A stretch of DNA of 64,000 bases, from positions 18,114-82,113 of the forward strand of contig JAZGCJ010000341.1 of the NCBI GenBank assembly GCA_036476895.1. Reading direction: 5' to 3'. Shown piece by piece: positions 20,880 through 49,497 of the stretch. Source of the DNA: Thermodesulfobacteriota bacterium (GTDB lineage Bacteria > Desulfobacterota_D > UBA1144 > Nemesobacterales > JAZGCJ01). The stretch's first letter is position 1, and each line of letters starts with the position of its first letter. The notes beneath the pieces are model-generated. The model was not told the DNA's origin, ran no database searches, and saw nothing but the letters and a program-made list of their open reading frames with translations. The position numbers were made by a program, and so were the translations under genes.

Positions 20880-21578
20880 TTAACGTACTATGAGTTCTTT
20901 ATATCGGTTAATAATCTGTGCCACTCTTACACGGAAAGCCTCGGCTTTAACCTCTTGTTGTATGGCTTGGGGGTTGTCAGGAAACAGGTGAATATAATCT
21001 TCGCCTACCAAAAAATTAACGGCAGTTAATTTCTTTGCAGCCTCGTGGATATCCGATGGTACAGTTAATCTGCCATGTCGGTAAGTCACACGAATTGTAC
21101 CCCGTCCTCGTTGGGCTTCTCCTGTGTACAATTCAATTCTTCCTGCACGTAAATCTACCCAATAATCTCCATCCCTGGGTCCAACTCCTGGTGTACCAGT
21201 ATCAACCAAATCAATATAAGAGGCTCCATTCCAGACCTCTAGTTTGTCACCCGCAGCTTTACTTAAATCAAAAATATTTCTTTTCTCTAAATAGACAATG
21301 ACAGCCGAACTATGCCGAGGAATGCCATGTCGAGTGTAATGTCGTCTGTTATGTCGCAGATTACTATGTGTTTCTTCTGTGACAATAGTAGTACGCCAAG
21401 CCTGTCCGGTTTCCTCATCTATCCATCTTTCGGCTTCTAATATCCATCTTTCAACATCTTTACGACTAGGATGACTCTTAGCTGAGAATACAATCCGTTT
21501 ATCTTTTTCCACTAGTCGTAGAAGGGATGATACATCTCGGGGTAAACAATAGATTGGTGAACCTGTTTCAATTGCCAT
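20880..21578 (-). CDS. hypothetical virion protein
   Basis: 232 aa. Separated from the next gene downstream by a 600-nt ORF-free structured region. Confidence 0.35.
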   Translation of the reverse strand: MAIETGSPIYCLPRDVSSLLRLVEKDKRIVFSAKSHPSRKDVERWILEAERWIDEETGQAWRTTIVTEETHSNLRHNRRHYTRHGIPRHSSAVIVYLEKRNIFDLSKAAGDKLEVWNGASYIDLVDTGTPGVGPRDGDYWVDLRAGRIELYTGEAQRGRGTIRVTYRHGRLTVPSDIHEAAKKLTAVNFLVGEDYIHLFPDNPQAIQQEVKAEAFRVRVAQIINRYKELIVR

Positions 21579-24813: not shown

Positions 24814-26106
24814 TTATTTCAGGTCACGGAGTTTAGCTTGTGAGGGGAATTGTTTGCATATTAATTCCAACATAGTCACAAACATACCTTCGTCTGCGAA
24901 AGTATCCAATGCAAATATGTTTCCATCCGTTGTTAAGCCTGTTTGATAGAATTGCGTAGGCATTAAAACTTTAATAGCCATGTAATTGAAATTCACTAAG
25001 TAGATTCGGCTGATTGTATCTTTTGGTGTATCGTCAGATACAATAATGGGAACACCATCCCAAGTTGCAACATTCAATGCACCTTCCACACCGGGGTTTG
25101 GAGTTTGGATACCACCAAAACCTGGTTGAATGGTTTTAGTATTATCAAAGACCATTTGAGGGGCTCGGAGTTCACCCATTCTTCGATAGGTATCCCATCC
25201 TGTTATTATAGCCCTTGGATGGTTCTTTTTAGTCCATCTACCAGTTTCGGTGAATAGATCATTGATCAGCTTAGGAGTAAGTTCACGGTCTGTACCAGAG
25301 TTGTGATTTACGTGGGCGTTTGACCAGGCATTATTGGCATCACGATCTACTGTTCCGCCAGAACCACCCCAGAGATCTCCATCTCCGGCATCTATACTAA
25401 TCGTAGCATCTGTAACTTCTGAGAAGTTAGTAATCATCCGATCTATTGATTCCATGTTGTTGCCTGCAAGTGTATCTACATCAGTAAAGAAGTGCTCGTT
25501 GAGCAGTTTTTGATGTTCCTCACCAGCTTCCGTTCTCAATTCCTCTAAAGGATTTGTGAACATGTCATCCATACCATTCAAGCCTAATTGCTGTTCTAAT
25601 GCACTTACATTAAAACCATTAGCTACAATTTTTGGTTTTGCAGAGATATCAATCCATTGTTGTTTGACAGTATCAGGCAATGCCGTAGGCAGTTCAGCCT
25701 GTCCTCCAGTATTGGCCGTTGTGGCTCTGGTTGTCATAATTTTGAAACCAGAATGACCCCATGGCATCTTTGGTGTCATACCAAATCCATTTGCTTCTAA
25801 ATTTACAGCTGACCAGACTTCAGCTCCAAAAATAGGATTGAAAGCAGCGGTTGTGGTAGTTAGTAAGGGGGCATCAGCTTTTGCTAAGCCATACAATTGT
25901 GGATAAGATATTCGCATTAAGTCCTCAATTGTTACAATCTTTGCAGATTTTTTGAATGCATGAAGAGCCAGAGCTTCTAAGGTTTCCATTGCATCTCTGC
26001 TCATTTTTTTCCCACCCATTGTTTCTAAGGTAACGGGCAACCCTGATTTTTCAAAGGTAAAGTTAGAAATATGACTATCGTAGGGGCGATCAATGGCTGA
26101 CATCAT
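24814..26106 (-). CDS. major capsid protein (HK97-fold inferred)
   Basis: 430-aa ORF immediately downstream of, and overlapping, the prohead protease/scaffold gene. Size and gene order are typical of HK97-like MCPs. No sequence motif was verified. Confidence 0.55.
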   Translation of the reverse strand: MMSAIDRPYDSHISNFTFEKSGLPVTLETMGGKKMSRDAMETLEALALHAFKKSAKIVTIEDLMRISYPQLYGLAKADAPLLTTTTAAFNPIFGAEVWSAVNLEANGFGMTPKMPWGHSGFKIMTTRATTANTGGQAELPTALPDTVKQQWIDISAKPKIVANGFNVSALEQQLGLNGMDDMFTNPLEELRTEAGEEHQKLLNEHFFTDVDTLAGNNMESIDRMITNFSEVTDATISIDAGDGDLWGGSGGTVDRDANNAWSNAHVNHNSGTDRELTPKLINDLFTETGRWTKKNHPRAIITGWDTYRRMGELRAPQMVFDNTKTIQPGFGGIQTPNPGVEGALNVATWDGVPIIVSDDTPKDTISRIYLVNFNYMAIKVLMPTQFYQTGLTTDGNIFALDTFADEGMFVTMLELICKQFPSQAKLRDLK

Positions 26107-27380
26107 TTTGCCTCCGCTTTGATTTTTCTGATTTTAGTATTGACATAACTGTAAATATTTCCAGTAGTTGTATGTTTGATAATTTCATCCATTGTGAAAG
26201 GATAGTCAGGTTCGACTTTTTGAATTTCCGGGGACTCTTGTGGTTTGTCCATTGGTAGTACAGAGGGCTTTGGAGTGATGGCTATTTCTTTAGTAACGAC
26301 TGGTTTTTCATCCTCTGGTTTTTCATCGGGTTTGAGATCTTGTTTTTTCTTAGTTCCTTTCGCACCTGTGTAAGGATCGTCTGGTTTGGTAGCATCACCG
26401 CCTCGTCTTTTCTTTTTATCCCTACGTTTCTCTTCATCCTCTTCTTCATCATCATCTTCGTGTTCTGCTTTGGTTGTAGAGTCTTTGAGGGCAGTAAAAA
26501 CCGCAAATTCCTGTTTGATAGCCTCAGAAATAGTTTCTGCCGTTATTGTAGGCATAGAGGATTCAAGTTTGATAACCTTCTCATTAAGCAGTTGAAATGA
26601 ATCATTTAGCTTATTAAAGGCATCAAACATCTTAGCCGTCATAGGAACTTCGACATAAGGCTGTATGTGCTCTTTAGATATTCCATCACTATGATCCTCG
26701 CCACAGGTGCAGAAATCTGCTTTCTCGAGATTTGTATTTGGTTCTTGCACAACCTCAGAAGTGGCAGGAGGAGTTTGGTGAATATAAATATCTAGTTTGG
26801 CTCGGTCACTCTCAGTTTTTTCTGTAATGACTTGTTCTGTTTCATCTGTCATAGTTTCACCTGTAGTTTCTTCACATGATTTACAAATAAAATTTTGTTT
26901 GGCAATAATTAACGAATCGTTATTGGCAGGTCTTCGTACTACTGCCACTTCAAATAATTCAAGGCTTGGAATTACATTGTGGCAGTTTCTACCGCCAATG
27001 TCACATTTCCTAAAACGAGAAAATGTTTCTCCACCGATAGAGACTCCTTTGTATTCTCCACTCTTTATTTTATCCCAAACATTGTCATGTATCTTATACT
27101 TATCAAAAATCATAGATTTTAACCATGTGGCTTTGACACCATCAACAGTTCTTACCCCGAACTCTAATCCCTTACCTACAATCTTATTGCTATGACTGTC
27201 TGTAATGGGGGCTCCGAGTTCAAACCAAATGGCCATTGCTTTATTGAGTCCATCTATTAGGACAAGATCTCCTTGAGAATCTATTTTCTCTAGAGATACT
27301 AATGACTCAAAAATTCGCTGATGACCAGTTGTGTTGTCAAAGATTTCGCTAATGGTCTGTTTTTGAATTGTTAGATACAT
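26103..27380 (-). CDS. prohead protease (HK97 S78-like) fused to an acidic coiled-coil scaffold-like C-terminus
   Basis: N-terminal domain ends with ELFEVAVVRRPANNDS, matching the E-V-S-L-V-x-x-P-A-N end of HK97-family proteases. C-terminus has EHEDDDEEEDEEKRRDKKKRR and heptad-like sequence. Confidence 0.5.
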   Translation of the reverse strand: MYLTIQKQTISEIFDNTTGHQRIFESLVSLEKIDSQGDLVLIDGLNKAMAIWFELGAPITDSHSNKIVGKGLEFGVRTVDGVKATWLKSMIFDKYKIHDNVWDKIKSGEYKGVSIGGETFSRFRKCDIGGRNCHNVIPSLELFEVAVVRRPANNDSLIIAKQNFICKSCEETTGETMTDETEQVITEKTESDRAKLDIYIHQTPPATSEVVQEPNTNLEKADFCTCGEDHSDGISKEHIQPYVEVPMTAKMFDAFNKLNDSFQLLNEKVIKLESSMPTITAETISEAIKQEFAVFTALKDSTTKAEHEDDDEEEDEEKRRDKKKRRGGDATKPDDPYTGAKGTKKKQDLKPDEKPEDEKPVVTKEIAITPKPSVLPMDKPQESPEIQKVEPDYPFTMDEIIKHTTTGNIYSYVNTKIRKIKAEAK

Positions 27381-27484: not shown

Positions 27485-29062
27485 TCACTTAATATTGTTC
27501 TTTACAATGCGGTCAATTTCGGCCACTGTAAGCGAATCAATGGCCCGTCTAAAAAAAGGTCGTGGTAATGTTCCGTTTTTTGCAATGGAAAAACGGATTG
27601 CGTTGGCAATCTTTAGAGCTTCTGCATCTCTTGTTTTTCTTTTCCTACCAGTTCCTGTAGATACTTGAACTCGAATCTTTCGCTTAACCCATGCCAGGAT
27701 TGGGTCTAATGGAGGCATGTGAGGTCGTGTGTTCCCACAAAAGGTTGGCTTCCCATTTCGTCTTACATAAAAGTTTCCATTTGAAACAGATAAACAGTAA
27801 ACCTTTCCTGAGTATGGGTAAAGTGAAACAGTTCTTGCATCCACCCACAAACTATTTGATTTCTTAATATATACAGTATAAGAAGGAAAATTACGTTTAT
27901 ACATTTTATTGTTAATACTGAATTCTCCTCTCAAGTCCCTAACTCCTATATAACTCCAAAAACCACACTTTAAGGCCAGTTCTTGAACATCACTGGCTAG
28001 ACCAATACTACTTGTATGGTACCTAGGATAAGAGCCAGAACTTGTTACAGCAGTACTTCCATCACCCACTAATAGTGCTTCAAGTAAACCCTCGGAAAAA
28101 GTTTTATTGTATTGGAGAAATTCCCGAGGAATTCGCTTAAAAGGAGCAAGTTTGTTTAATCCCTTTTTAGCTAACCAACTAACTAATTGAACATTTGAAA
28201 TTCTGAATTTTTTCCCATCGTAAATATATTTAAAAGGTAGTTTATCTAACACATTTTGGATATACAAGCAACCGTCTTGTTTTGTTTGTGATATATTTAA
28301 TCTATAATTTTTGTTAGGATATCGCTTGTCATTTTCAATATTACCTTCACTAATGATCAGTCCCAAAAAGTTTGCAAAGTTCAACGGATTAATTTTGAGT
28401 GTTGGTTTTTCTAAATCTATATACTCTTTCTGTTTCCCTAAGAAATGTTGTTCCATATATTTGTTAATTTCCACATCGATTAGAGAATTGCCTTTCCAGC
28501 TTCCAACAGTGGGTATGTATCCTCTGTATCCTTTTAAGATTGATTTTGCAGGTCTGAAATGTAGATTCTTTTTGTTCCTGTTATACATTAACATACGATG
28601 ATCTGGTGTGACCAACAGATCCAAATACCTATTTTTAAAATGTAATAAATCTCCTGACCAATCTCTCTCTGTTATTTTTTTAGGGTAGCTATATTCTATT
28701 TTACCACTCCTCACATTTAAAGTGCAGACAATATCATTAATTGTACATTTTGTAATTGATTTCCATCCATGTGTTGTTAGAACCTCTGTATCAGCAGAAT
28801 AACATCCAAACTCGATGAACGGGGCATGAAAAGCATCGAAGATAACTTTTTTCTTTAATCTTTTTCGTTCAACTCTTCCAGAACGAGCTAGTGTTCCTCT
28901 ATCAAAAGCACCTTCGCCTATTGCAGGTGAGAAATTAGCGGACCGTAAGTTTTCATCTGCTTCGCTTAGGACAAAATCAGCCATGTCATCTAAGGCTCGG
29001 TCAAGTTGATCTAAGAAATCATCGTAGATTTTTTCAACTGTATCCCCCAAAAGTTTGACCAT
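27485..29062 (-). CDS. HK97 gp10-family virion protein interrupted by an intein with LAGLIDADG homing endonuclease
   Basis: N-extein ends FHAPFIEFG. Intein starts CYSADTEVLTTHGW (block A), has block B LLVTPDHRML and LAGLIDADG-like FLGLIISEGNI and LLEALLVGDGST, and ends VYCLSVSNGNFYVRRNGKPTFCGN. The +1 residue is T, followed by RPHMPPLDPILAW (gp10-family ...YVEFGT..MPA.P.L pattern). Confidence 0.65.
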   Translation of the reverse strand: MVKLLGDTVEKIYDDFLDQLDRALDDMADFVLSEADENLRSANFSPAIGEGAFDRGTLARSGRVERKRLKKKVIFDAFHAPFIEFGCYSADTEVLTTHGWKSITKCTINDIVCTLNVRSGKIEYSYPKKITERDWSGDLLHFKNRYLDLLVTPDHRMLMYNRNKKNLHFRPAKSILKGYRGYIPTVGSWKGNSLIDVEINKYMEQHFLGKQKEYIDLEKPTLKINPLNFANFLGLIISEGNIENDKRYPNKNYRLNISQTKQDGCLYIQNVLDKLPFKYIYDGKKFRISNVQLVSWLAKKGLNKLAPFKRIPREFLQYNKTFSEGLLEALLVGDGSTAVTSSGSYPRYHTSSIGLASDVQELALKCGFWSYIGVRDLRGEFSINNKMYKRNFPSYTVYIKKSNSLWVDARTVSLYPYSGKVYCLSVSNGNFYVRRNGKPTFCGNTRPHMPPLDPILAWVKRKIRVQVSTGTGRKRKTRDAEALKIANAIRFSIAKNGTLPRPFFRRAIDSLTVAEIDRIVKNNIK

Positions 29063-29785: not shown

Positions 29786-30049
29786 TTATTTCACCTTAAA
29801 TCGTTGAATAGTTCTTTGATGTGCTTGTGATAAACTGATTATACTTTGAAATCCTGCTGTAAAGACTTTAAGTTTTTGTCTGTCCACTCCGTCCCTGAGA
29901 ATCTCCTGAACTGTGTTGTCAAATTCATTAGTGGTTTCAATTATCTTATCCCGCATTCTAAGTAATAATCTATCCACTGTGTCTGATGGAAATGCAAAAG
30001 TAACTTTCTGTTTCGTTATTTTTCCACACTGACTGCAAACAAGAATCAT
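29786..30049 (-). CDS. hypothetical small protein
   Basis: 87 aa, N-terminal CSQCG. Confidence 0.3.
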   Translation of the reverse strand: MILVCSQCGKITKQKVTFAFPSDTVDRLLLRMRDKIIETTNEFDNTVQEILRDGVDRQKLKVFTAGFQSIISLSQAHQRTIQRFKVK

Positions 30050-30948
30050 GCTCTTATCCTCTTAACTTCAGCTAAATGCTTATTCGCTCTTGTAGTTATT
30101 CGTGTATATTCTGCAAGAACTTTATCAATATTCTTATTTACTGTTTTCTTTGACTTAAATTTTGTACGTTTCCATTTAGCTACTTCAGCACGGCTGAAAA
30201 CAATTCCCTGTCGTGTATCATGATTCATCTTTGATGAAACTCGTGATAACGTGGCTGTAATCTTTTCAACGCCTTCTTGGGGTAGTTTACCTTGACTTGT
30301 GAGTCTCTGACTTATTCTGCCAGAAACGGGAGCCGCTCTGAATCCACCTGCAGCCAATCGTTCTACATTTATAAAGAATGAGTCTCCCTGATTCTTTAAA
30401 CTCTTGATTCCTGAGTCCAGGTTAGTACGAATTAGTTTTGATAAATCAAAAAAGATCCGGCCTAAGTTTTTGCCAAAGCCCAATTCATCGGCTGATCTTT
30501 TTGCACTTACAACAATATTGTTAGCTCTTATCAATAGGGTTCGTAGTTGGCCGGCAAGAGAATTAAATTCGTTCTTTTGCCGTTTGAAATCCTTAACAGA
30601 GGCAACTTTCATAAAGAAGCTAGGTTTATGACAGGTGTGACAATCATGTTTTTGAATCATTGCCATAAAACCGCCTGTGGTATCTAGTTCCATCACATTA
30701 ACAATGGACTGATTACCAGGATGCTGACCAATGTGTAATTTGTGAAACTCTTCAAAATTGCGATAAATAGCTGTGGAGGCGGTAGGTGTATTCCAACGAA
30801 TGACTACTTGCCCGTCCTCGAAAATTATCCCGGTTATAATATGACCAATTCCCGAATGTCCAGATTCGTCGGCTTGTCGAATAACCGTAAACAGTTTGAT
30901 GCCAGTTTCACGTTTTATCAAATTACAAGTCTTGCAGAATGTTTCCAT
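30046..30948 (-). CDS. hypothetical head-morphogenesis-associated protein
   Basis: 300-aa ORF between the portal-MuF gene and the gp10-like gene. Confidence 0.35.
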   Translation of the reverse strand: METFCKTCNLIKRETGIKLFTVIRQADESGHSGIGHIITGIIFEDGQVVIRWNTPTASTAIYRNFEEFHKLHIGQHPGNQSIVNVMELDTTGGFMAMIQKHDCHTCHKPSFFMKVASVKDFKRQKNEFNSLAGQLRTLLIRANNIVVSAKRSADELGFGKNLGRIFFDLSKLIRTNLDSGIKSLKNQGDSFFINVERLAAGGFRAAPVSGRISQRLTSQGKLPQEGVEKITATLSRVSSKMNHDTRQGIVFSRAEVAKWKRTKFKSKKTVNKNIDKVLAEYTRITTRANKHLAEVKRIRA

Positions 30949-31522: not shown

Positions 31523-33967
31523 TTATACCCGCCTAATGAAGCGAGATCTGCAATTTGGATGAATTAACCAGATTTGTCGGGAGTTTACGGGTGGAGTCCG
31601 CCATTTAGGGCCATTAAATTCGGATTGTACATCATGTGCAATCTGTTTTAACTCATCTAGGGTAATACCTTGTCTGCCATCTTTGGCGGCCTCTACTCTA
31701 CGAACCATTTCAATACACTGAGAACTAGTGCGGTCGTCCCTGCGAATCCTCCACACATATAACAATTCCTCTTCACGTTCTTCTTCTAGGTTTCTGTACC
31801 CGACCTCTCTTCCGGCCAGTACAAATCGCTGGGACTCAGACCTGGCAATTCTTTCAATCCTAAATGTATCAGTGGCAATAATTCCTTGCATAGTCCCGAT
31901 GATTTCATCAAGGCTAGGTTTCTGTCCAGCTTGGAATCCTTCTCTAACAACTTCACGAAGGTCATCACTGATATCCCTAGTAAAATCTGTAAAGGACTCT
32001 ATGAAAGGTTGTTCAGCTTCAAACGCATCGATAGCGTCAGTGTCTTCTGGAGACACACCCCCAAGAATTGAGTCAATAGTTAGATCAGGAGTATCTAAAT
32101 CTTGCTCGCTGGTTTGATTAAATGCTGTGTTTTTACCATACTTAAACATAGCTAATAAGTAACGAAAAACCCAGGTGTTAGTAATTCCTTTGGCCTCTAC
32201 AAGAAATCTATTAAATGCTTCTTCGAGTTGTTCGGGTTCGGGGTTTGGGTCTCTCAGGGCTTCGAGTTCTCTTCTTAGTATGTCTTGCAAATTTACGTTT
32301 ATACGCTGATATAAGTCCGAAGCTAGGATATCGTTTACCGTAGATTTTCTCAGCCACTGAGATTTTTTTTTTTCAATTTCCTCTTCTTGTTCTTCCTCTT
32401 GATCTTGCTCAGGGGCGGTTAGTTGTTGTGGTGGTGGTGGGAAAAACTGATTTTGAGGTCCATTTTCTATTTGTTCTTTTGCCTTGCCCGAAAAGATGAA
32501 ATTACCCTCATCATTGAGTTCTACATCAAATCCCAAATCATGCATTGATTGGGCATTGGAAATTTTAATTGCTTCTCGTTCTAACTCGGCAACCTGATCT
32601 TCTTCTAGGGATAGTGGTAAGACATATTTCCAATCAGTAACATTCATGGCTTCCATGATCTTAGGAAATATAAAATTGTTCCAAATTGCTTGTCCTGACT
32701 CTACAACCCGGTTAGTAACTGTAATTTGTAAACTTTCATTATTCAGCCCTCCACTGGTACTGACATCACCACGTAAGGCGGGTTCTACACCATAATAACC
32801 ACCAATGCGATCTGCAAATTCCTTTCGTGTTTCCATATATTGCATTTCATCAAGAGAACTATCAAAGCGGATAAATTCAGGTTTGTTGTCTCCTGTTGTG
32901 GGGTCATAAGCAAAAACGGGTTTGTATTGATTATCATCTCTGACCTTTTCTCTCCAATCATCCCACATGTCCCTGACAGCTTCACGATTGTTTGATGGGA
33001 AGACCATTAATCCGCTTGGAATTTCTCTATAAACATAATAATCAGAAACATAGTTTATTTGTGACATTAAGGTTAGCATGTAGGGCCAACCAGTTAGAAT
33101 GGGGCTGTATCCATATAATCTCCCTTTCCTATATTTCTGTGTGTGGATAACCTCGCCTTTGATGAATGCCTGTGAAGGGGTTTTTCCACCATCCATAGTT
33201 TCAATATAATGGACGGGATAAAGCTCATGACTTCCACAATGAGAACAGGCATCTGGACTGTCAGCAGTTGTAATGAATTGTCGATGGATTAAACAGGTCT
33301 TATGAACAGAACCGATTTCTTGTCTTTCAGACGCAGAGACACGCATGAGGGATGGATCGGCCCGATAAACTTCTTTTAGTAAGTGTCCAAGTTCATCAAC
33401 ATCTGGGTCTCCATTTTCGCTTTTGCGTTTAGTAATAACATATCCTTTAATTAGAACAATATATATGTCATCGGCAATTTGAAAGTCATCCTCTCCAGCT
33501 CTGCCAACCTCTCGGAGTGATTCACCATTTTCATTGGCTAATTTCATTAATCCTTCGGATAGCAGTTTTTGATCGTGGTCAGGAGGACGAATATTCCCAG
33601 TTTCACAGTTTGGACAGGTGAACCCTTCATTGTTAAACTTAAAGTCTGATATTTTGTCAGCAGTTGCTTCAACTACTTTGTTGCGAAATTCTCTTTCGCA
33701 TTGATCACATTTACCCCAAAAATTTGCTTCTAATTCAATTTCTTTCCTCCAAATTTGATTTCCAAGCTCTCTTATACAGGTTCTTGTTACAATCTCTTGA
33801 TCCGCCATTGCATAGATGTCTTGGTAAGATCTGGGGATCAGAGGCAGCTGTATGCCTGATGGTTGTCGGTGAGGAAAAGGAGGTAAAGGTGGTCGGGCCT
33901 CTGTTTTAGTCTCAGTGTTCTTTTGTTTGCCTAAGATTAAATTTGCGAGACTAGACCTTAAATTCAT
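31523..33967 (-). CDS. portal protein fused to C-terminal MuF/SPP1-gp7-like minor head domain
   Basis: 814 aa. Central region ...ADRIGGYYGVEPALRGDVSTSGGLNNESLQITV... is portal-like. C-terminal domain ends ...RQIWLIHPNCRSRFIRRV (the HPNCRC signature of Phage_Mu_F). N-terminal zinc ribbons (CDQCE..CPNCE, CSHCGSH). Confidence 0.5.
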   Translation of the reverse strand: MNLRSSLANLILGKQKNTETKTEARPPLPPFPHRQPSGIQLPLIPRSYQDIYAMADQEIVTRTCIRELGNQIWRKEIELEANFWGKCDQCEREFRNKVVEATADKISDFKFNNEGFTCPNCETGNIRPPDHDQKLLSEGLMKLANENGESLREVGRAGEDDFQIADDIYIVLIKGYVITKRKSENGDPDVDELGHLLKEVYRADPSLMRVSASERQEIGSVHKTCLIHRQFITTADSPDACSHCGSHELYPVHYIETMDGGKTPSQAFIKGEVIHTQKYRKGRLYGYSPILTGWPYMLTLMSQINYVSDYYVYREIPSGLMVFPSNNREAVRDMWDDWREKVRDDNQYKPVFAYDPTTGDNKPEFIRFDSSLDEMQYMETRKEFADRIGGYYGVEPALRGDVSTSGGLNNESLQITVTNRVVESGQAIWNNFIFPKIMEAMNVTDWKYVLPLSLEEDQVAELEREAIKISNAQSMHDLGFDVELNDEGNFIFSGKAKEQIENGPQNQFFPPPPQQLTAPEQDQEEEQEEEIEKKKSQWLRKSTVNDILASDLYQRINVNLQDILRRELEALRDPNPEPEQLEEAFNRFLVEAKGITNTWVFRYLLAMFKYGKNTAFNQTSEQDLDTPDLTIDSILGGVSPEDTDAIDAFEAEQPFIESFTDFTRDISDDLREVVREGFQAGQKPSLDEIIGTMQGIIATDTFRIERIARSESQRFVLAGREVGYRNLEEEREEELLYVWRIRRDDRTSSQCIEMVRRVEAAKDGRQGITLDELKQIAHDVQSEFNGPKWRTPPVNSRQIWLIHPNCRSRFIRRV

Positions 33968-40343: not shown

Positions 40344-43300
40344 TTACCTCACTGTAGCATCAAATGTATAATCTTTAGTTTTCTTAGCAGTAAATGTATA
40401 TTGAACAGATTTAGTAGCAGTAAATGTATATTGAACAGATTTAGTAGCATCGAATGTGAACGCAATTGTCTTTGTTGGTTCACAAGTAAATTTAATTGTT
40501 TTGGTAGCATCAAAAGTTAAGTCTCCAATGGCAACAATCTCCACTTCTCGAGAAAGTGTCCTGGAGGCTTGTGCATCTTGCTGCACAACACGACTGACAG
40601 ATCGGCTCGCCCGAGCCTCGTTCTGGATTTCTCTGAATAGGCTAATTGAGGCACGTGCTTCGTTTTGGATGGCCCTCGAAACCGATCTACTGGCCCTCGT
40701 TTCCTGTTTCACAATTCTAGTCAAAGATCGACTATTACGTGCCTGAGCTTGTGTCATACGGCTAATTGTTTGACTAACTCTGGTTTCCTGTTGAATCTCC
40801 CTTGAAACTGTCCTTGATTTACGGTCTTCCATCTCTGGAGTTCTGGTTATGCTGCGGGATGCTCTTGCTTCCTGCTGAACCTGTCGAGATACAGTAACAC
40901 TATTACGTGCCTCTTTCTGCACTTCTCGTAACAAGGATCTGGAAGCCCTTGCAGTCAGGATAACTTCACGACTTATTATTCTTGAATCTCGTGCATCTTG
41001 TTGAACCTGTCTTTGGACGGATCTTGATGCCTTAGCTTCCTGTTGTGCAGTTCGGGTTAAACTCCTTGAGGCTAATGCTACAATAATAACCTCTCTGGAT
41101 ACTGTTCTTGATGCCCTTGCATCTTGTTGAACTATTCGGTGAACAGATCGTGAAGCTCGTGCTTCTTGTTGTACAATTCTTGTCAGACTTCTACTAGCAC
41201 GAGCCTCGGACTGTACCACTCTATGAACTGAACGAGAATCCCTTGCAGTTCCAATAACCTCTCTGCTTATTGTTCGGCTAGCTCTGGCCTCCTGTTGAAT
41301 TACTCTCGAAACAGACCGACTGGCTCTTGCCTCACTCTGTACAACTCTATGTAGCGATCTTGACGCTCGTGCTTCTTGGAGTACATTTCGTGTGACGCTT
41401 CTACTCGCACGATCATCCTGTTGAACGACTCGGTGAACTGATCGAGATGCCTGTGCATCCTGTTGGATTTCCCTGGATATGGTTCGACTATTACGTGCCT
41501 CTTGTTCGACTATTCTGTGAACTGAACGACTAACTCTGGCCTCAGCCTGGGTTTTCCTTGATATCGTCCTACTCGCACGGGCCTCCTGTTTTACTTCTCT
41601 TGTAACACTTCTTGAGGCTCTGGCTTCCTGTTTTACAACTCTTGTGACTGATCTGCTAGCCCTTGATTCCTGTTGAACCTGTCTGCTCACTGATCTGCTA
41701 GCCCTTGCCTCAGACTGTACTATTCGATGAATTGACTTACTAACTCGGGTCTCTTGCTTTACAACCCTGTGAACAGACCTGCTAGCACGGGCTTCCGCTG
41801 ATCCTGCACTTCTCGTCACAGATATGCTCTGTCTTGCTTCTTGTTGAACTTCTCGGCTTATGGTACGTGAGGCCCTGGCAGAATTAACAGTTTCTCGTGA
41901 CACAGTTCTTGATACACGAGCTTCTTGTTCCACTATTCGGTGAACAGACCTGCTAATTCGGCCCTCATCTTTGATGGTACGAGCTAGTCCCCTACTAACC
42001 AAAACAAGACATTCTGGTAATCCAAGCGTGTGAAAGGTCGAAGGACTATTTTGATTATTATATTCAGATAAAATCCATCCCGCAGTATGGACTATATCAG
42101 AAATCCGAATTTCATCCATAATTGCATTAACGGCTTGACTAGCATGAGATACAAGAAACGGATCTGAATTAGCGAGACTACTATCTACTTCGTCCATATT
42201 ATCATTATTATCCTCAACTCCATTTTCATAAATCCTTAATAAAGCTGGTATTCTATCAACTTGACCAACAAAATAAATCCATATCCCTGTTGTTGGTATT
42301 GGAACTCTTGATGTATCCTGAGTATCTCCATCAGCATCTTCTACCTCAAACTTCATTCCGTTAACAAGAGAAGTAAGATTAAAAGAATATCCAGCATTAC
42401 CAGCAAATTCTCCTTTGTCAATAGGTCGTCTTGGCCCCCCTCCCGAATTAAAATTAATCCACATAGAAACAGTTAAATCTAAAGCAAAGTCTAAATGCCC
42501 ATCCCCGGGATCTCCCATACTAACTTGCCCATTAAATCCATCAAAATTATAAGCATCCCCAATTTTACCAGTCGATCCTTGTGTTGTACCTCCAGATATA
42601 ATCCCGTCTGTATTATGAATAGTAGAATCTTTAGCATTACCAGATGCTTCTTGGAAGTGCCAAACTCCTTTATAATTGGAATTCCAAGTTCCTGGTTTGT
42701 TTTGTTGGTCAGTTGCCCCAGAATTGTTATAATACATATAGATGTCTGTATCTATGGAACCGCTAATGAAAGGAAGGTTTACCCAAGCAATCAACTCTCC
42801 TGTGCCAGTGACATATAGCACACGTTCGTGATTAAGTTTTGTCACACCATCGGAGGATGTAAAGAGAATATCAAATCCATCTGACCGTGCATCATCCGAT
42901 AGGTTAGCATCGCTAGTTAATCTAATGAGTACGGGAAAATCAACTAAATTCTCGGCAATCTTAGTAGAGTCGATGGTGACTTTCTTTCGGCAAATCCAAT
43001 CATTATCAAACCATTGAACTGCAGGTGCTACCGTCCTTGACAAGGGACGACTAGCTCTGGTCACTTGTTCTATAGTCCTTGTTAAAGATCTGGATGCACG
43101 TGTCTCTTGCTGTACTTGTCTGGATAGAGATCTGCTCACACGAGCTTGATCGAGTACTTTTCTTGTAATTGATCTACTAGCCCGTGCAGTAAAAACAACT
43201 TCCCTGGATATTGTCCTACTAACTCTGGTATCCTTTTGAACAATCCGGTGAACACTTCTTGAGGCTTGAGCATCCTGTTCTACTTCTCTGGATAGGTGTC

Positions 43301-44672
43301 TTGACGCTCGTGCTTGATCAGTCATTGTTCTTGTGACTGATCGTGAGGCTTGGTCAGAGTTAATAGCCTCTCTGCTGATGGTACGGGAAACCCTTGTTTC
43401 CTGTTGAACCACTCGATGAACAGAACGACTATCTCTAGTTACCTGTTCAACCGTTCTTGATAAGGATCTGGATGCCCTTGCGGATTGTTGTTGTTCAAAT
43501 TCAATTACGAAGAACGTTCTATTTCTGGCTGTATCGGCAGTGGCAACCTCGTCATTCCCGAGATCCTCCCACTGGAAGCTAAATGTGGTCGATGCGGTTA
43601 TCCCTGTTTTTGCCCAAATTTGGCAAAGCCCCGTCACTTCGTGATCATGATCTACAAACGTAGTGAGTTCAGATCCCTCTCTTGTACCTGCTACGGCTAT
43701 TCTATATTGGGTAGTACTTTCAGCGGAGCCACCAGTCGCATTTGACGGATTAAAGTTAGCTACAATTAAATGAATGGCATTTGAGGCATTAGGGGTATAA
43801 GTCCCTGTCATGCCAGTCATATCGGCATAACTGACCGGGGATGTGGCAGACGAGGTAAGATTGACATCAACTTTTAAAACTGCATTACTTTTAATTTCTA
43901 CAATTTGAAAGGTTCGCAGTCTGCCGGTATCTACACTTGTAGTCTGCCCTTCTCTTGTCTGCCATTGTAATTCAAATCCATGACTTCCTGATATTCCATC
44001 AAGAATGTGCATTCCAGACCATCCCGGCCCCTCATCAATTTCGTCCTTAAATACACTGGTAATTGCTCCCTCTTTAGTGCCATCTACAGAGAATTGAAAA
44101 TCCGCAGTGTCGTCTGAAGAATCTGATAAATCAATTGGCACATTTGCAATCATTAAAAGAACACTACCAGTTCCTGCAACAGAGATACTGCTAGCACTAA
44201 ACAGATTACCCCACGTACTTGGGGAGGCTGCTGCCCCAGTTGAGGATTGGTTTACTAGAATACTAGCGTCCCCATCTGTAATTTCAATGACTTGGAGTGA
44301 CTGCTCTCGAGCAGTGTCCATGTTCGCATCAGATATTACATCTTGCCATTCACATTTAAAACTATTAGATGATCCTGATAGCCCAGTAACCGCAAACATT
44401 ATAGTCATAGGATGAACACCCCCTACTGAGTGAATGTTATCCGTAAATGCAGTAACTACAGGGCTCCCAGTGGCAGACCCATTGACACTGATTCTGAATT
44501 CGGCAGTTGCATCCCCCTCATCCTTTAAAGGAACTTGAGCAATTATAAGTAATACGCTACTGGTATTCTTTACAGTGATACCACTTGCTGTCAAACCTGG
44601 GACAATACCCCACGTAGCAGGGGCAGTACCTGAACTTAAAGAGGTTATATCAACCAGTAGATTTGAAGGCAT
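40344..44672 (-). CDS. giant fibre-like structural protein with about 50 tandem Arg/Ser-rich 14-aa repeats flanking a LamG/concanavalin-like domain
   Basis: 1442 aa. Repeat unit about RASRSVxRxVQQEA (42-nt DNA periodicity) in two blocks. Central domain ...FDGFNGQVSMGDPGDGHLDFALDLTVSMWINFNSGG... is LamG-like. N-terminal β-rich Ig-like region. C-terminus has short 10-aa repeats (TKSVQYTFTA) encoded by 30-nt tandem DNA repeats at 40380-40450. Confidence 0.6.
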   Translation of the reverse strand: MPSNLLVDITSLSSGTAPATWGIVPGLTASGITVKNTSSVLLIIAQVPLKDEGDATAEFRISVNGSATGSPVVTAFTDNIHSVGGVHPMTIMFAVTGLSGSSNSFKCEWQDVISDANMDTAREQSLQVIEITDGDASILVNQSSTGAAASPSTWGNLFSASSISVAGTGSVLLMIANVPIDLSDSSDDTADFQFSVDGTKEGAITSVFKDEIDEGPGWSGMHILDGISGSHGFELQWQTREGQTTSVDTGRLRTFQIVEIKSNAVLKVDVNLTSSATSPVSYADMTGMTGTYTPNASNAIHLIVANFNPSNATGGSAESTTQYRIAVAGTREGSELTTFVDHDHEVTGLCQIWAKTGITASTTFSFQWEDLGNDEVATADTARNRTFFVIEFEQQQSARASRSLSRTVEQVTRDSRSVHRVVQQETRVSRTISREAINSDQASRSVTRTMTDQARASRHLSREVEQDAQASRSVHRIVQKDTRVSRTISREVVFTARASRSITRKVLDQARVSRSLSRQVQQETRASRSLTRTIEQVTRASRPLSRTVAPAVQWFDNDWICRKKVTIDSTKIAENLVDFPVLIRLTSDANLSDDARSDGFDILFTSSDGVTKLNHERVLYVTGTGELIAWVNLPFISGSIDTDIYMYYNNSGATDQQNKPGTWNSNYKGVWHFQEASGNAKDSTIHNTDGIISGGTTQGSTGKIGDAYNFDGFNGQVSMGDPGDGHLDFALDLTVSMWINFNSGGGPRRPIDKGEFAGNAGYSFNLTSLVNGMKFEVEDADGDTQDTSRVPIPTTGIWIYFVGQVDRIPALLRIYENGVEDNNDNMDEVDSSLANSDPFLVSHASQAVNAIMDEIRISDIVHTAGWILSEYNNQNSPSTFHTLGLPECLVLVSRGLARTIKDEGRISRSVHRIVEQEARVSRTVSRETVNSARASRTISREVQQEARQSISVTRSAGSAEARASRSVHRVVKQETRVSKSIHRIVQSEARASRSVSRQVQQESRASRSVTRVVKQEARASRSVTREVKQEARASRTISRKTQAEARVSRSVHRIVEQEARNSRTISREIQQDAQASRSVHRVVQQDDRASRSVTRNVLQEARASRSLHRVVQSEARASRSVSRVIQQEARASRTISREVIGTARDSRSVHRVVQSEARASRSLTRIVQQEARASRSVHRIVQQDARASRTVSREVIIVALASRSLTRTAQQEAKASRSVQRQVQQDARDSRIISREVILTARASRSLLREVQKEARNSVTVSRQVQQEARASRSITRTPEMEDRKSRTVSREIQQETRVSQTISRMTQAQARNSRSLTRIVKQETRASRSVSRAIQNEARASISLFREIQNEARASRSVSRVVQQDAQASRTLSREVEIVAIGDLTFDATKTIKFTCEPTKTIAFTFDATKSVQYTFTATKSVQYTFTAKKTKDYTFDATVR

Positions 44673-47817: not shown

Positions 47818-49497
47818 TCATCTATTCATGCTTGTTACGAGTTCCGCCCCTGAGCTAATTCTGTCAGATCCAATAACCGTTAGCCATAAAGACATCATAC
47901 AATCGTTATGAGCCGTTACATGTTCTATTTTACTTTCCTCATTCATAATATATCCCCGCATTTCAAAGAATAAATTTTCCATTCCATCTGATAATGGGGC
48001 ATAAGCAGGATAACGAAGCCTCTCATTTTCCATGTGCATCCGTAATTTTGGCAATCCCATTTCGAGATCTTTTACCTCAGATCCAGTATGGTAAGGTAAA
48101 ATTGGAATACTTGTGGTTTGTGTCAATTCTTGAGCTAATACTTTCTGGTATTGGTTGGATTCAATGACTAGTAAGTCAAAATTATATCTAATGTTAAAAT
48201 CTTTGATCAATTGTTTTTGTTGAATATAAGGCAGACCTTTTCTCCGTTCTACCCATAATACATCATAGCGATAATTTTTGGTAATGCCAATCACTGTAAT
48301 TACAAAGTAGTCTGCCGAGGTTTCTGCTGATATGGCAAGATCTACTCCGCCTACAATGTTTTTATACCATAATGATTTACCATTTTCATCATAGAATCTC
48401 TGGTATAGCATTTCTCGGTCAAGATCGTGGCATCTCTCAACTGTTGCGTCAGGATAGAGTTGGGAGCCTGCAGCAATATATCTACATAGAAAATTCCTGG
48501 TAAATGCTAAATTGCCGATTCCTTTGAGCCGTTTTAACAATCGTGCTCGTGGCCATCGTTCCTTCCACAATACAGGAGATCCAGGATGTTTTTTAAAATA
48601 GGCAATTTCCTTTCCTAACAAGGCTTCATGGCGGAAAATTTTGCCACTTTTCGCCATGAATAGTTCATTCTTTTTGAGTTCATTTATAAGATCAGTTTGT
48701 CGGTAAGGAGTGCCAACTACTATAAATAGTGTGTCCTCACCTCCGAGATTCAAGACAATATTGAAAAACCAGCGTTTTGTTTGTCGGTCTGTCATATTGG
48801 CTTTGTCAAACGGAACAATGTCGTCACACACAATTATGTTAGGTCGTTTCCGAAGTGCTCTAGCCCCGGCAACTTGTTTACCCGAACCTCCGGCTAAACA
48901 TTTTGAGCCGTTCAAGAACCGAAAACTTTCGTTGCCCCATTTTCGGGGATGTTTTAGGATATGGAAAATTGTCTCATTGAGGAAATCCTTAATATTTTCA
49001 CTGCGTTCCTCAGCTTGTCCTTTGGTGGATGAAAAAATAACTACGTAGCTGCCGGGATGGAAAATCATATACCACAGGATATATATTTCCATTAACGTAG
49101 ATTTGCCATGTTCTCGGGGAATTTCTATTAATATATGGGTATTGTTTTTATCCCGCAGCTCTTTGATGATTGGCTTTTGAAATTTCGCTATTTTGAAGCC
49201 GTAATAATGCTCCATAAAGAAGTTAAAATTTTTGGAGGCTTTTTGCATGTAATAGCGTTCGAGAGGATCTTTGATATCAGTCAGATATGCTTTCCATTCC
49301 GTGTCTTTGGCATGGCATGCTTTGCATAAGTCTAAAGCCCTCCCAATTGGATAATCTTCAGTTACAACGATATCGCAAGAAGTGCAATGCACAGTACGAT
49401 TTAATATTGCCTGGCATTCCGCACAGGTTGGTCCCTCAACCACAGGCCGCTTGCAGTAATCGCAAAATTGTGTCTCGACTACCGCCCTCGCTTTCAT
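47818..49497 (-). CDS. terL: terminase large subunit (N-terminal zinc ribbons, ATPase, nuclease)
   Basis: 559 aa. Walker A IEIPREHGKSTLMEI, Walker B NIIVCDDIVPFD, nuclease-domain acidic motif GGVDLAIS...DYFVITVIG. N-terminal CDYCKRP...CAECQ...CTSCD...CKACH. Confidence 0.75.
   Translation of the reverse strand: MKARAVVETQFCDYCKRPVVEGPTCAECQAILNRTVHCTSCDIVVTEDYPIGRALDLCKACHAKDTEWKAYLTDIKDPLERYYMQKASKNFNFFMEHYYGFKIAKFQKPIIKELRDKNNTHILIEIPREHGKSTLMEIYILWYMIFHPGSYVVIFSSTKGQAEERSENIKDFLNETIFHILKHPRKWGNESFRFLNGSKCLAGGSGKQVAGARALRKRPNIIVCDDIVPFDKANMTDRQTKRWFFNIVLNLGGEDTLFIVVGTPYRQTDLINELKKNELFMAKSGKIFRHEALLGKEIAYFKKHPGSPVLWKERWPRARLLKRLKGIGNLAFTRNFLCRYIAAGSQLYPDATVERCHDLDREMLYQRFYDENGKSLWYKNIVGGVDLAISAETSADYFVITVIGITKNYRYDVLWVERRKGLPYIQQKQLIKDFNIRYNFDLLVIESNQYQKVLAQELTQTTSIPILPYHTGSEVKDLEMGLPKLRMHMENERLRYPAYAPLSDGMENLFFEMRGYIMNEESKIEHVTAHNDCMMSLWLTVIGSDRISSGAELVTSMNR

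What the first reader, a model, noticed from the sequence alone, without database searches (positions are those of the whole stretch)
27485..29062. Intein with LAGLIDADG homing endonuclease inserted in the conserved EFG^T site of an HK97 gp10-family virion protein
The 525-aa ORF starts and ends with sequence matching the small HK97 gp10-family head-tail connector/completion protein (...HAPFIEFG / TRPHMPPLDPILAW, compared with the family pattern ..YAPYVEFGT..MPA.PYL.PA). Between them lies a 360-aa Hint domain. It has block A CYSADTEVLTTHGW, block B LLVTPDHRML and C-terminal VYCLSVSNGNFYVRRNGKPTFCGN followed by Thr. It encloses two LAGLIDADG-like helices (FLGLIISEGNI, LLEALLVGDGST). Inteins in viruses are usually found in polymerases, helicases, terminases or ribonucleotide reductases. 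One inside a small structural connector protein is unusual. It implies splicing must complete before virion assembly. The penultimate intein residue is Gly rather than the usual His.
Basis: partly seen in the sequence, partly recalled or inferred. Interest (0 to 1): 0.6.

Follow-up and report, generated by a model that had tools for sequence, protein, structure and literature searches.

The report
Homing intein inside a tail-completion protein
A self-splicing, mobile protein element (an intein carrying a homing endonuclease) interrupts a small virion protein of an uncultured tailed virus, in the loop that in a related phage caps the end of the packaged DNA; the element is an ordinary kind, but I found no earlier report of it in this host protein.

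Summary
It is a precursor made of an 86-aa N-extein, a 358-aa intein (window 27731..28804) and an 81-aa C-extein.

Evidence for the intein:
- A syntenic metagenomic allele encodes a 167-aa protein 78% identical to the joined exteins. At DNA level it differs by an indel of exactly 1074 bp.
- The insert is homologous to known inteins: mycobacteriophage nucleotidyltransferase inteins, PI-PkoII and archaeal VMA inteins.
- It keeps Cys1, TxxH, both LAGLIDADG acidic residues, the terminal Asn and a Thr at +1.
- The penultimate Gly is a family trait (94 of 100 relatives end in GN), not an anomaly.

Evidence for the host protein:
- The insertion lies between the equivalents of gp51 G85 and T86, inside the loop whose Y78, F81 and R87 cap the packaged DNA end.
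- One other family member, of about 340 relatives inspected, carries a different, HNH-type intein six residues upstream.

Verdict: a canonical class-1 homing intein in a host protein with no earlier report in the literature searched. This is a new member of a known kind and of moderate interest. Splicing and endonuclease activity are inferred, not tested.

The parts
27485..29062 (-). Precursor ORF, 525 aa plus stop: tail completion protein interrupted by an intein
   Evidence: ORF list. Identical to NCBI MAG protein P0001, annotated only as 'LAGLIDADG family homing endonuclease'.
28805..29062 (-). N-extein, aa 1-86 (long N-terminal helix, beta-hairpin, short helix ending ...DAFHAPFIEFG)
   Evidence: Matches Pfam HK97-gp10_like positions 4-78 of 78. 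Matches extein-family profile positions 9-82. AF2 model has pLDDT 96.
27731..28804 (-). Intein, aa 87-444 (358 aa): Hint splicing domain with a nested LAGLIDADG endonuclease
   Evidence: Exact 1074-bp indel against the intein-free locus L001. tblastn to mycobacteriophage NT inteins over aa 87-446. Family profile hits solved inteins PI-PkoII (1.7e-21), VMA inteins (6e-15) and PI-SceI.
28763..28804 (-). Splicing block A, CYSADTEVLTTHGW; Cys87 is the intein's first residue (N-terminal nucleophile)
   Evidence: Cys1 is present in 100 of 100 relatives. Coordinates checked.
28589..28618 (-). Splicing block B, LLVTPDHRML; TxxH = Thr152 and His155
   Evidence: T66 and H69 are invariant in 101 family members.
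27875..28390 (-). LAGLIDADG homing endonuclease domain (about aa 225-396)
   Evidence: Pfam LAGLIDADG_3 is above its curated cut-off. Profile positions 139-310 align to the endonuclease domain of PI-PkoII.
28337..28369 (-). LAGLIDADG motif 1, FLGLIISEGNI (acidic residue Glu239)
   Evidence: The family column holds E in 52 and D in 45 of 101 sequences.
28052..28087 (-). LAGLIDADG motif 2, LLEALLVGDGST (acidic residue Asp334)
   Evidence: The family column holds D in 99 of 101 sequences.
27731..27802 (-). Splicing blocks F and G, VYCLSVSNGNFYVRRNGKPTFCGN; Cys423 at F:4, penultimate Gly443, terminal Asn444
   Evidence: Family conservation: C 89/101, RRNG above 86%, G 97/101, N 99/101.
27485..27730 (-). 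C-extein, aa 445-525 plus stop; begins with Thr445 (+1 nucleophile), then RPHMPPLDPILAW
   Evidence: Matches extein-family profile positions 83-160. The +1 column is T in 55 and S in 46 of 110 intein-free homologs.
28805..28837 (-). Upstream half of the insertion-site motif, DAFHAPFIEFG. It corresponds to 80alpha gp51 ...HAAY78SGF81LEFG85 in the DNA-end-capping loop.
   Evidence: hhalign of the family profile against gp51. Roles of Y78, F81 and R87 come from 10.1101/2024.12.10.627806.

Best explanation
The gene encodes the tail completion protein (TCP; HK97 gp10, lambda gpZ, SPP1 gp16.1 and 80alpha gp51 family) of an uncultured tailed virus. A canonical class-1 intein with a nested double-motif LAGLIDADG homing endonuclease interrupts it in frame.

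Proposed mechanism (inferred):
1. The 525-aa precursor is translated.
2. Cys87 performs an N-S acyl shift on the Gly86-Cys87 bond.
3. The hydroxyl of Thr445 takes over the N-extein by transesterification.
4. Asn444 cyclises and releases the 358-aa intein.
5. An O-N shift leaves a native Gly86-Thr87 peptide bond in a 167-aa mature TCP.

The insertion lies inside the loop that in 80alpha gp51 stacks on the last base pair and binds the terminal phosphate of the packaged DNA, and the TCP sits inside the narrow neck lumen. An unspliced precursor should therefore be unable to function, so splicing must precede TCP incorporation at head-tail joining.

The excised intein's endonuclease is predicted to cut intein-free TCP alleles of related co-infecting viruses at the ...GAGTTTGGA|ACACGACC... 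junction. Copying of the intein by recombinational repair (homing) would follow.

Shown here: the architecture, the exact insertion point, the homology of each part, conservation of the catalytic residues, and the existence of an empty allele. Inferred: splicing competence, endonuclease activity, and TCP location and function in this virus.
For: - Empty allele. P0108 (167 aa, 78% identical, full coverage) equals the joined exteins. Locus L001 is syntenic, and blastn shows two blocks separated by exactly 1074 bp in the window.
- Intein homology. aa 87-446 match mycobacteriophage nucleotidyltransferase inteins (27.7% identity, E = 1e-17). More than 100 intein-bearing proteins with unrelated exteins (ThyX, ATP-grasp, DnaB, portal, terminase) match only this stretch. 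The family profile hits the solved inteins PI-PkoII, VMA, AceL NrdHF, PI-SceI and RecA.
- Catalytic residues. Cys1, Thr66/His69, Gly148/Gly154, Glu153, Asp248-Gly249, Cys337, Arg348-Arg349-Asn350-Gly351, Gly357 and Asn358 all agree with the family consensus. The +1 residue is Thr in 47 of 100 relatives.
- Penultimate Gly. It occurs in 94 of 100 relatives. A Gly-penultimate phage intein splices to completion experimentally (PMC5050341).
- Insertion site. Gly86 is invariant in 110 homologs, and T/S follows it in 101 of 110. hhalign maps G86|T87-R88 onto gp51 G85-T86-R87, and gp51 Y78, F81 and R87 contact the DNA end.
- Second invasion. P0202 carries an HNH-type intein six residues upstream in the same loop, and its spliced extein again passes the Pfam cut-off.
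- Genomic context. The gene sits in a tailed-virus module with portal, protease-scaffold, MCP, adaptor, minor tail protein, tape measure protein and TerL. There is no second TCP homolog in the window.
Against: - No experiment: neither splicing nor endonuclease activity has been shown.
- Pfam Intein_splicing and Hint_2 score below their curated cut-offs (20.8 against 35.8 and 13.9 against 28.4).
- The AF2 model of the whole precursor is unreliable across the intein (pLDDT below 50), so the Hint fold was not confirmed structurally.
- Block F has Cys where most inteins have Asp, and the penultimate His is missing. Both are family traits, but they leave the catalytic details uncertain.
- The gene lies between the portal and protease genes rather than with the neck and tail genes downstream of the MCP. 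Its role as a TCP in this virus therefore rests on homology to 80alpha gp51 (21% identity).
- Compositional evidence for recent acquisition is weak. Intein GC is 33.0% against a window mean of 37.8% (3.7th percentile), and GC3 is 26% against 31%.
Confidence: 0.85

Rival explanations
1. The element is a decaying intein. It still splices, or the virus would lack a TCP, but its LAGLIDADG endonuclease no longer cuts. It would then be a fixed, immobile passenger rather than an active homing element.
For: Only this one sequence with this intein at this site turned up among about 340 family members and loci inspected. The nearest intein relatives are only about 35% identical and sit in unrelated proteins, so there is no sign of ongoing spread. 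Endonuclease decay after fixation is the standard homing-cycle expectation (established knowledge).
Against: Both catalytic acidic residues (Glu239, Asp334) and the other conserved endonuclease positions (K223, P226, T264, S266, G281 in intein numbering) match the family consensus. An intein-free allele 78% identical exists in nature, so the element is not fixed in the lineage.
Confidence: 0.3
2. The insert is splicing-dead and the gene is effectively a disrupted TCP. Either it is a pseudogene-like remnant in a defective virus, or the endonuclease is expressed as a fusion with no structural role.
For: Non-canonical catalytic positions: penultimate Gly and Cys at block F:4. Pfam splicing-domain scores are below threshold. 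NCBI annotates the product only as a homing endonuclease.
Against: The ORF is intact over 1575 nt. Every position conserved at 85% or more in 101 family inteins is retained. GN termini are the family norm, and a GN intein has been shown to splice. The exteins remain 78% identical to an uninterrupted allele and fold confidently. No other TCP homolog is present in the window to take over the function.
Confidence: 0.07
3. The insertion is an assembly chimera in the metagenome-assembled genome, not a real gene structure.
For: The source is a MAG whose taxonomic label (Thermodesulfobacteriota) disagrees with the archaeal-virus-like capsid gene, so binning quality is questionable.
Against: Binning errors do not create in-frame insertions. 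The insert is exactly 358 codons, begins with Cys, ends with Asn and is followed by the native Thr. The same protein is recorded on two contigs.
Confidence: 0.01

Closest known systems
Mycobacteriophage class-1 inteins with LAGLIDADG endonucleases (for example the Cluster C1 gp3 nucleotidyltransferase intein of ET08 and Pleione; Kelley et al. 2016, PMC5050341)
   Same: The whole 358 aa is homologous (27.7% identity, E = 1e-17, boundaries aa 87-446). Both have Cys1, TxxH, a nested LAGLIDADG domain, a terminal Asn and no penultimate His. Both are inserted at a conserved site of a phage protein that contacts nucleic acid.
   Different: The host protein is a tail completion protein, which is absent from the host list of that survey (TerL, RecB, RDF, NT, DNMT, TOPRIM, portal, helicase, ThyX, hypothetical). 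The virus is an uncultured, archaeal-virus-like one. Sequence identity is low.
ThyX, ATP-grasp (PurD-like) and DnaB inteins of the '...VRRNGxxxWCGN' family in metagenomes (P0002-P0107)
   Same: These are the closest relatives (up to 35% identity, E = 1e-48). They share the family signature: Cys1, VTPDH, Cys at block F:4, RRNG, a GN terminus and T/S/C at +1.
   Different: The exteins are unrelated. None of the 100 is in a gp10-family protein.
PI-PkoII (Thermococcus kodakarensis Pol intein, 2cw7) and archaeal VMA inteins (7qsu, 7qss)
   Same: These are the best solved-structure relatives of the intein family profile (E = 1.7e-21 and 6e-15). They have the same Hint plus LAGLIDADG architecture.
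   Different: The similarity is distant, and for PI-PkoII it lies mainly in the endonuclease domain. The host proteins differ. In the alignment, PI-PkoII has Asp (VYDLSV) where this family has Cys in block F.
80alpha gp51 tail completion protein (PDB 9mu2 chain P; HK97 gp10, lambda gpZ, SPP1 gp16.1 family)
   Different: Identity is only 21%. The window protein is longer (167 against 115 aa), with extra C-terminal helices. Its gene lies upstream of the protease and MCP genes instead of among the neck genes. gp51 has no intein.
P0202 (ENA metagenome contig k141_1165096): gp10-family protein with an HNH-type intein
   Same: It is the only other intein-bearing member found. The extein family is the same (hhalign probability 99.8%), and the DNA-capping loop is again the target.
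   Different: The insertion point differs (...SAMYA^SFIEYGT, six residues upstream). The intein is unrelated: it has an HNH endonuclease, a canonical His-Asn terminus and Ser at +1. It represents an independent invasion.

Membership tests
Intein (class 1) | In-frame insertion in a host protein whose intein-free homologs run uninterrupted across the junction | tested here: met
   P0108 (167 aa, 78% identical) and 109 other homologs are contiguous across G86|T87. The DNA indel is exactly 1074 bp.
Intein (class 1) | Nucleophile (Cys or Ser) as the first intein residue | tested here: met
   Cys87 is the first residue. It is Cys in 100 of 100 relatives.
Intein (class 1) | Block B TxxH motif | tested here: met
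   T152-P-D-H155. Thr and His are invariant in the family.
Intein (class 1) | C-terminal Asn (or Gln) followed by a Cys, Ser or Thr +1 extein residue | tested here: met
   Asn444 followed by Thr445. Thr is the native residue at this position in intein-free homologs.
Intein (class 1) | Penultimate His in block G (typical, not obligatory) | tested here: not met
   The residue is Gly443. 94 of 100 relatives also end in GN. A Gly-penultimate phage intein splices fully (PMC5050341).
Intein (class 1) | Significant similarity to curated or solved Hint/intein domains | tested here: met
   tblastn to annotated phage inteins gives E = 1e-17. The family profile matches solved inteins at 1.7e-21 to 1e-5. 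Pfam Intein_splicing alone is below its cut-off.
Intein (class 1) | Hint fold | tested here: inconclusive
   The AF2 precursor model has pLDDT below 50 over most of aa 91-444. No prediction jobs remained.
Intein (class 1) | Autocatalytic protein splicing that gives ligated exteins | not testable with these tools
   This needs expression and SDS-PAGE or mass spectrometry.
Class 3 intein | No N-terminal nucleophile, plus the WCT triplet (Trp B:12, Cys F:4, Thr G:5) | tested here: not met
   Cys1 is present. B:12 is Met, F:4 is Cys and G:5 is Cys. Motif definition from PMC5050341.
LAGLIDADG homing endonuclease (double-motif, intein-encoded) | Two LAGLIDADG motifs, each ending in a catalytic acidic residue | tested here: met
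   FLGLIISE239G and LLEALLVGD334G. Pfam LAGLIDADG_3 scores 29.4 bits against a cut-off of 22.5.
LAGLIDADG homing endonuclease (double-motif, intein-encoded) | Site-specific cleavage of the intein-free allele | not testable with these tools
   An empty-site sequence is available from L001 for a cleavage assay.
HK97 gp10 / tail completion protein family (PF04883, PHROG_5) | Profile match above the curated threshold | tested here: met
   The spliced extein scores 24.2 bits against a cut-off of 21.4. The unspliced precursor scores 21.2, just below. PHROG_5 gives 5.8e-11.
HK97 gp10 / tail completion protein family (PF04883, PHROG_5) | Fold of the only solved member (long N-terminal helix, beta-hairpin, loop with a short helix, long C-terminal helix) | tested here: met
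HK97 gp10 / tail completion protein family (PF04883, PHROG_5) | Conserved loop motif (H/Y)A..(V/I)E.G(T/S)(R/K)PH | tested here: met
   The sequence is H79-A-P-F-I-E-F-G86|T87-R-P-H90. It aligns with gp51 Y78...G85-T86-R87.
HK97 gp10 / tail completion protein family (PF04883, PHROG_5) | Gene placed among the neck and tail genes downstream of the major capsid gene (usual, not defining) | tested here: not met
   The gene lies between the portal and the protease-scaffold genes. The order is the same in L001.
HK97 gp10 / tail completion protein family (PF04883, PHROG_5) | Presence in the virion neck, contacting the DNA end and the tape measure protein | not testable with these tools
   This is known only for 80alpha/SaPI1.

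The most novel reading that the evidence does not exclude
The intein is more than a parasite. By sitting in the DNA-end-capping loop of a protein present as a single copy in the 80alpha/SaPI1 neck, its splicing rate, or a redox-sensitive state of its conserved Cys1, Cys F:4 and Cys G:5, would act as a post-translational timer. That timer would gate tail completion and head-tail joining in an archaeal-type tailed virus. More broadly, two independent invasions would mark the TCP loop as a recurrent intein hotspot and as a universally essential DNA-contact site.
Probability: 0.08. Interest if true: 0.7.

Novelty: new member of a known kind. Interest (0 to 1): 0.4.

Why it matters
Inteins mark the most conserved and functionally indispensable sites of their hosts. 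In phages they have been reported almost only in proteins that handle nucleic acids.

Here two unrelated inteins, one LAGLIDADG-type and one HNH-type, sit six residues apart in one loop of the tail completion protein. In 80alpha gp51 that loop has recently been seen to stack on the last base pair of the packaged genome. This gives independent evolutionary support for the idea that the loop is the functional core of a protein family whose role was long obscure. It extends that inference to very distant, archaeal-virus-like relatives.

The finding adds a small virion protein to the list of intein hosts and supplies a natural pair of filled and empty alleles for testing homing. It also corrects a database annotation: the NCBI product name 'LAGLIDADG family homing endonuclease' hides a structural gene.

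Tried and rejected
1. The AF2 prediction of the whole precursor from a mixed alignment (A4) gave pLDDT below 50 across the intein. It could not be used for a fold search, so the Hint fold is unconfirmed structurally.
2. A profile of the extein family against PDB sequences found nothing, even at E = 10. The link to 80alpha gp51 came only from fold comparison and hhalign.
3. I searched for more copies of this intein allele. IMG/VR gave 40 loci, JGI metagenomes 28 loci, the representative search showed its top 150 hits and a profile search of 5.8 billion proteins showed its top 120. All but the window protein itself (P0001) and P0202 are 86-279 aa products, or open frames of at most 304 codons, with no intein. 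Only the best-scoring part of 3143 and 443 hits was visible, so rarer cases may exist.
4. megablast of 20 kb of the window against GenBank phages found no match.
5. HVTV-1 gp116, which occupies a similar position upstream of the protease gene, is not a TCP homolog (hhalign probability 0.1%).
6. Class-3 intein was considered because of the Cys at block F:4. It was rejected: Cys1 is present and there is no Trp at B:12 or Thr at G:5.
7. Base composition is only weak evidence of recent transfer.
8. Full-text searches for intein together with 'tail completion', 'head-tail connector', 'tape measure', 'actinophage' or 'archaeal tailed viruses' found no report of an intein in this protein family. The library covers open-access papers only.
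Full report
**Observation**

The window contains a 525-codon ATG-initiated ORF at 27485..29062. It is on the minus strand; the plus-strand translation of the same interval is full of stops. The ORF divides into three parts:
- N-extein, aa 1-86 (window 28805..29062)
- intervening element, aa 87-444, 358 aa (27731..28804)
- C-extein, aa 445-525 plus stop (27485..27730)

**The insert is an intein**

The decisive evidence is an empty allele.
- A search with the in-silico spliced 167-aa extein returned P0108. This metagenomic protein is exactly 167 aa, 78% identical over 100% of the query, and reads ...HAPFMEFG-TRPHLPP... with no interruption.
- Its contig (L001) has the same neighbouring genes. 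It aligns to the window at about 76% nucleotide identity in two blocks, separated in the window by exactly 1074 bp, or 358 codons.
- A profile of 110 extein homologs matches the window ORF as two pieces: profile 9-82 on aa 7-86 and profile 83-160 on aa 445-525. The profile is therefore contiguous across the insert.

The insert is homologous along its full length to known inteins.
- tblastn against GenBank phages matches aa 87-446 to the nucleotidyltransferase (gp3) inteins of Cluster C1 mycobacteriophages (27.7% identity, E = 1e-17).
- More than 100 metagenomic proteins with unrelated exteins (ThyX, ATP-grasp, DnaB, methylases, portal, terminase) match only this stretch, at up to 35% identity.
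- A profile of 23 family members hits the solved inteins PI-PkoII (1.7e-21), archaeal VMA inteins (6e-15), AceL NrdHF, PI-SceI, Mja KlbA and Mtu RecA.
- Pfam LAGLIDADG_3 is above its curated cut-off. Pfam Intein_splicing and Hint_2 are below theirs.

**State of the catalytic apparatus**

I extracted 100 homologous inteins and compared them.
- All begin with Cys.
- 94 end in Gly-Asn.
- The +1 residue is Thr in 47, Cys in 29 and Ser in 24.

The window copy agrees with the family consensus at every position conserved at 85% or more:
- Cys1 and Thr66/His69 (TxxH)
- Gly148 and Gly154
- Lys223 and Pro226
- Asp248-Gly249
- Ser266 and Gly281
- Tyr331 and Gly333
- Cys337 and Val340
- Val347 and Arg348-Arg349-Asn350-Gly351
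- Gly357-Asn358

Both LAGLIDADG acidic residues are present: Glu239, in a column holding E or D in 97 of 101 sequences, and Asp334, in a column holding D in 99 of 101.

Kelley et al. (PMC5050341) showed experimentally that a mycobacteriophage intein with a penultimate Gly splices to completion, and that mutating the Gly to His slows it.

The family carries Cys rather than the usual Asp at block F:4. It also has Cys1 and lacks Trp at B:12 and Thr at G:5, so it is not a class-3 intein. I conclude that it is a class-1 intein that is probably splicing-competent and has a possibly active endonuclease. Both activities are inferred.

**The host protein**

- After in-silico splicing, the extein passes the Pfam HK97-gp10_like cut-off (24.2 against 21.4 bits). 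With the intein in place it just fails (21.2).
- PHROG_5 'tail completion or Neck1 protein' matches at 5.8e-11.
- An AlphaFold2 model built on 110 homologs is confident (pLDDT 96, pTM 0.86).
- That chain is 80alpha gp51, the tail completion protein (TCP). The authors equate it with lambda gpZ, SPP1 gp16.1 and HK97 gp10 (10.1101/2024.12.10.627806).

In the SaPI1/80alpha neck, a single gp51 monomer sits inside the lumen. [quoted passage not shown] Its extended loop caps the packaged DNA: Y78 and F81 stack on the last base pair, and R87 holds the last 3' phosphate.

**Where the intein sits**

- Gly86 is the only position in the loop region that is invariant in all 110 homologs. The next residue is Thr or Ser in 101 of 110. 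The intein therefore uses the host's own conserved hydroxyl residue as its +1 nucleophile.
- Profile alignment maps the window's ...H79-A-P-F82-I-E-F-G86|T87-R88-P onto gp51 ...Y78-S-G-F81-L-E-F-G85-T86-R87-Y.
- The intein is thus inserted inside the DNA-end-capping loop. It lies four to seven residues after the two stacking aromatic positions and one residue before the phosphate-binding Arg.
- A 41-kDa domain in that loop, on a protein that must fit inside the neck channel, should be incompatible with function.
- The placement also fits the observation in PMC5050341 that all mycobacteriophage intein hosts surveyed bind nucleic acid.

**How common is this?**

- None of 40 IMG/VR loci and none of 28 JGI metagenome loci encoding relatives carries an insertion.
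- None of the 120 best hits of a profile search does either.
- Among the best 150 of 3143 representatives, only the window protein and P0202 are long.
- P0202 (489 aa) is a second, independent case. It holds an unrelated intein with an HNH endonuclease, a canonical His-Asn terminus and Ser at +1. The insertion is at ...SAMYA^SFIEYGT..., six residues upstream, between the equivalents of gp51 Y78 and F81.
- The spliced extein of P0202 passes the Pfam cut-off and aligns to the family profile with 99.8% probability.
- So the loop has been invaded at least twice, but intein-bearing members are rare.
- Full-text searches of the open-access library found no report of an intein in a tail completion protein. 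Among virion proteins, the mycobacteriophage survey (PMC5050341) lists only portal as an intein host.

**Context**

- The gene lies in a tailed-virus structural module, all on the minus strand:

| Gene | Coordinates |
|---|---|
| Large terminase | 47818..49497 |
| Portal fused to a minor-head-protein domain | 31523..33967 |
| Protease-scaffold | 26103..27380 |
| Major capsid protein | 24814..26106 |
| Adaptor-like protein | 20880..21578 |
| Minor tail protein | 18268..19233 |
| Tape measure protein | 16124..17584 |

- A family B DNA polymerase is at 1109..3487.
- The capsid protein is closest to the haloarchaeal siphoviruses HVTV-1, HCTV-1 and HCTV-5 (33-35% identity) and to a Methanofastidiosa virus.
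- The exact protein nevertheless comes from an 88-kb contig of an NCBI MAG labelled Thermodesulfobacteriota, where it is annotated only as a LAGLIDADG homing endonuclease.
- The window has no other intein of this family and no second TCP homolog.
- The intein is somewhat more AT-rich than its surroundings: 33.0% GC against 41-42% in the exteins, at the 3.7th percentile of equal-sized windows. GC3 differs little, so composition is only weak evidence of recent transfer.

**Verdict**

The element is a standard class-1 homing intein of a well-populated family. What appears to be new is the host protein and the insertion site, together with the link between that site and the recently described DNA-capping loop of the tail completion protein. 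I rate it as a new member of a known kind, of moderate interest. The main open points are experimental: whether it splices, whether the endonuclease cuts, and whether the protein sits in the neck of this virus.

Noticed in passing
window 27485..29062 relative to 31523..33967 and 24814..27380 (minus strand); L001:368-2109: The tail-completion-protein gene lies between the portal and protease-scaffold genes. It is not among the neck and tail genes downstream of the major capsid gene, where this family usually sits. The intein-free relative L001 has the same order.
   Followed up: partly
window 31523..33967 (-): The 814-aa portal ORF appears to be a fusion. The portal domain covers aa 24-484. A C-terminal region at aa 647-810 matches head-morphogenesis and minor-head-protein PHROGs (phrog_3517, phrog_115).
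   Followed up: no
window 30046..30948 (-): The collection's precomputed Pfam table lists PF26761 'Acb5' for this 300-aa product. My own Pfam scan returned nothing at E <= 0.01. PHROG phrog_7499 (unknown function) matches the N-terminus.
   Followed up: no
window 24814..26106 (-) and the whole contig: The major capsid protein is most similar to haloarchaeal siphoviruses (HVTV-1, HCTV-1 and HCTV-5, 33-35% identity) and to a Methanofastidiosa virus. The source MAG is labelled Thermodesulfobacteriota, so the contig is probably a mis-binned, possibly archaeal, virus.
   Followed up: partly
window 27731..27802 (-), intein blocks F and G: The intein family conserves Cys at block F:4 (89/101) and often Cys at G:5 (51/101), in addition to Cys1. 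This is not the class-3 WCT pattern. Its catalytic or redox meaning is unknown.
   Followed up: partly
L072:585-2054 (ENA contig k141_1165096): This is a second gp10-family protein, carrying an unrelated HNH-type intein. It is inserted six residues upstream of the window's site, in the same DNA-capping loop.
   Followed up: yes
window 26103..27380 (-): The 425-aa product combines a weak prohead-protease (S78-like) N-terminal region with a long, highly charged C-terminal part (...EDDDEEEDEEKRRDKKKRR...). It looks like a protease-scaffold fusion.
   Followed up: no
window 40344..44672 (-): A 1442-aa ORF with a DUF2341 domain and tail-fibre PHROG matches lies in the most GC-rich part of the window (41-44% against a mean of 37.7%). 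It is separated from the main tail module.
   Followed up: no
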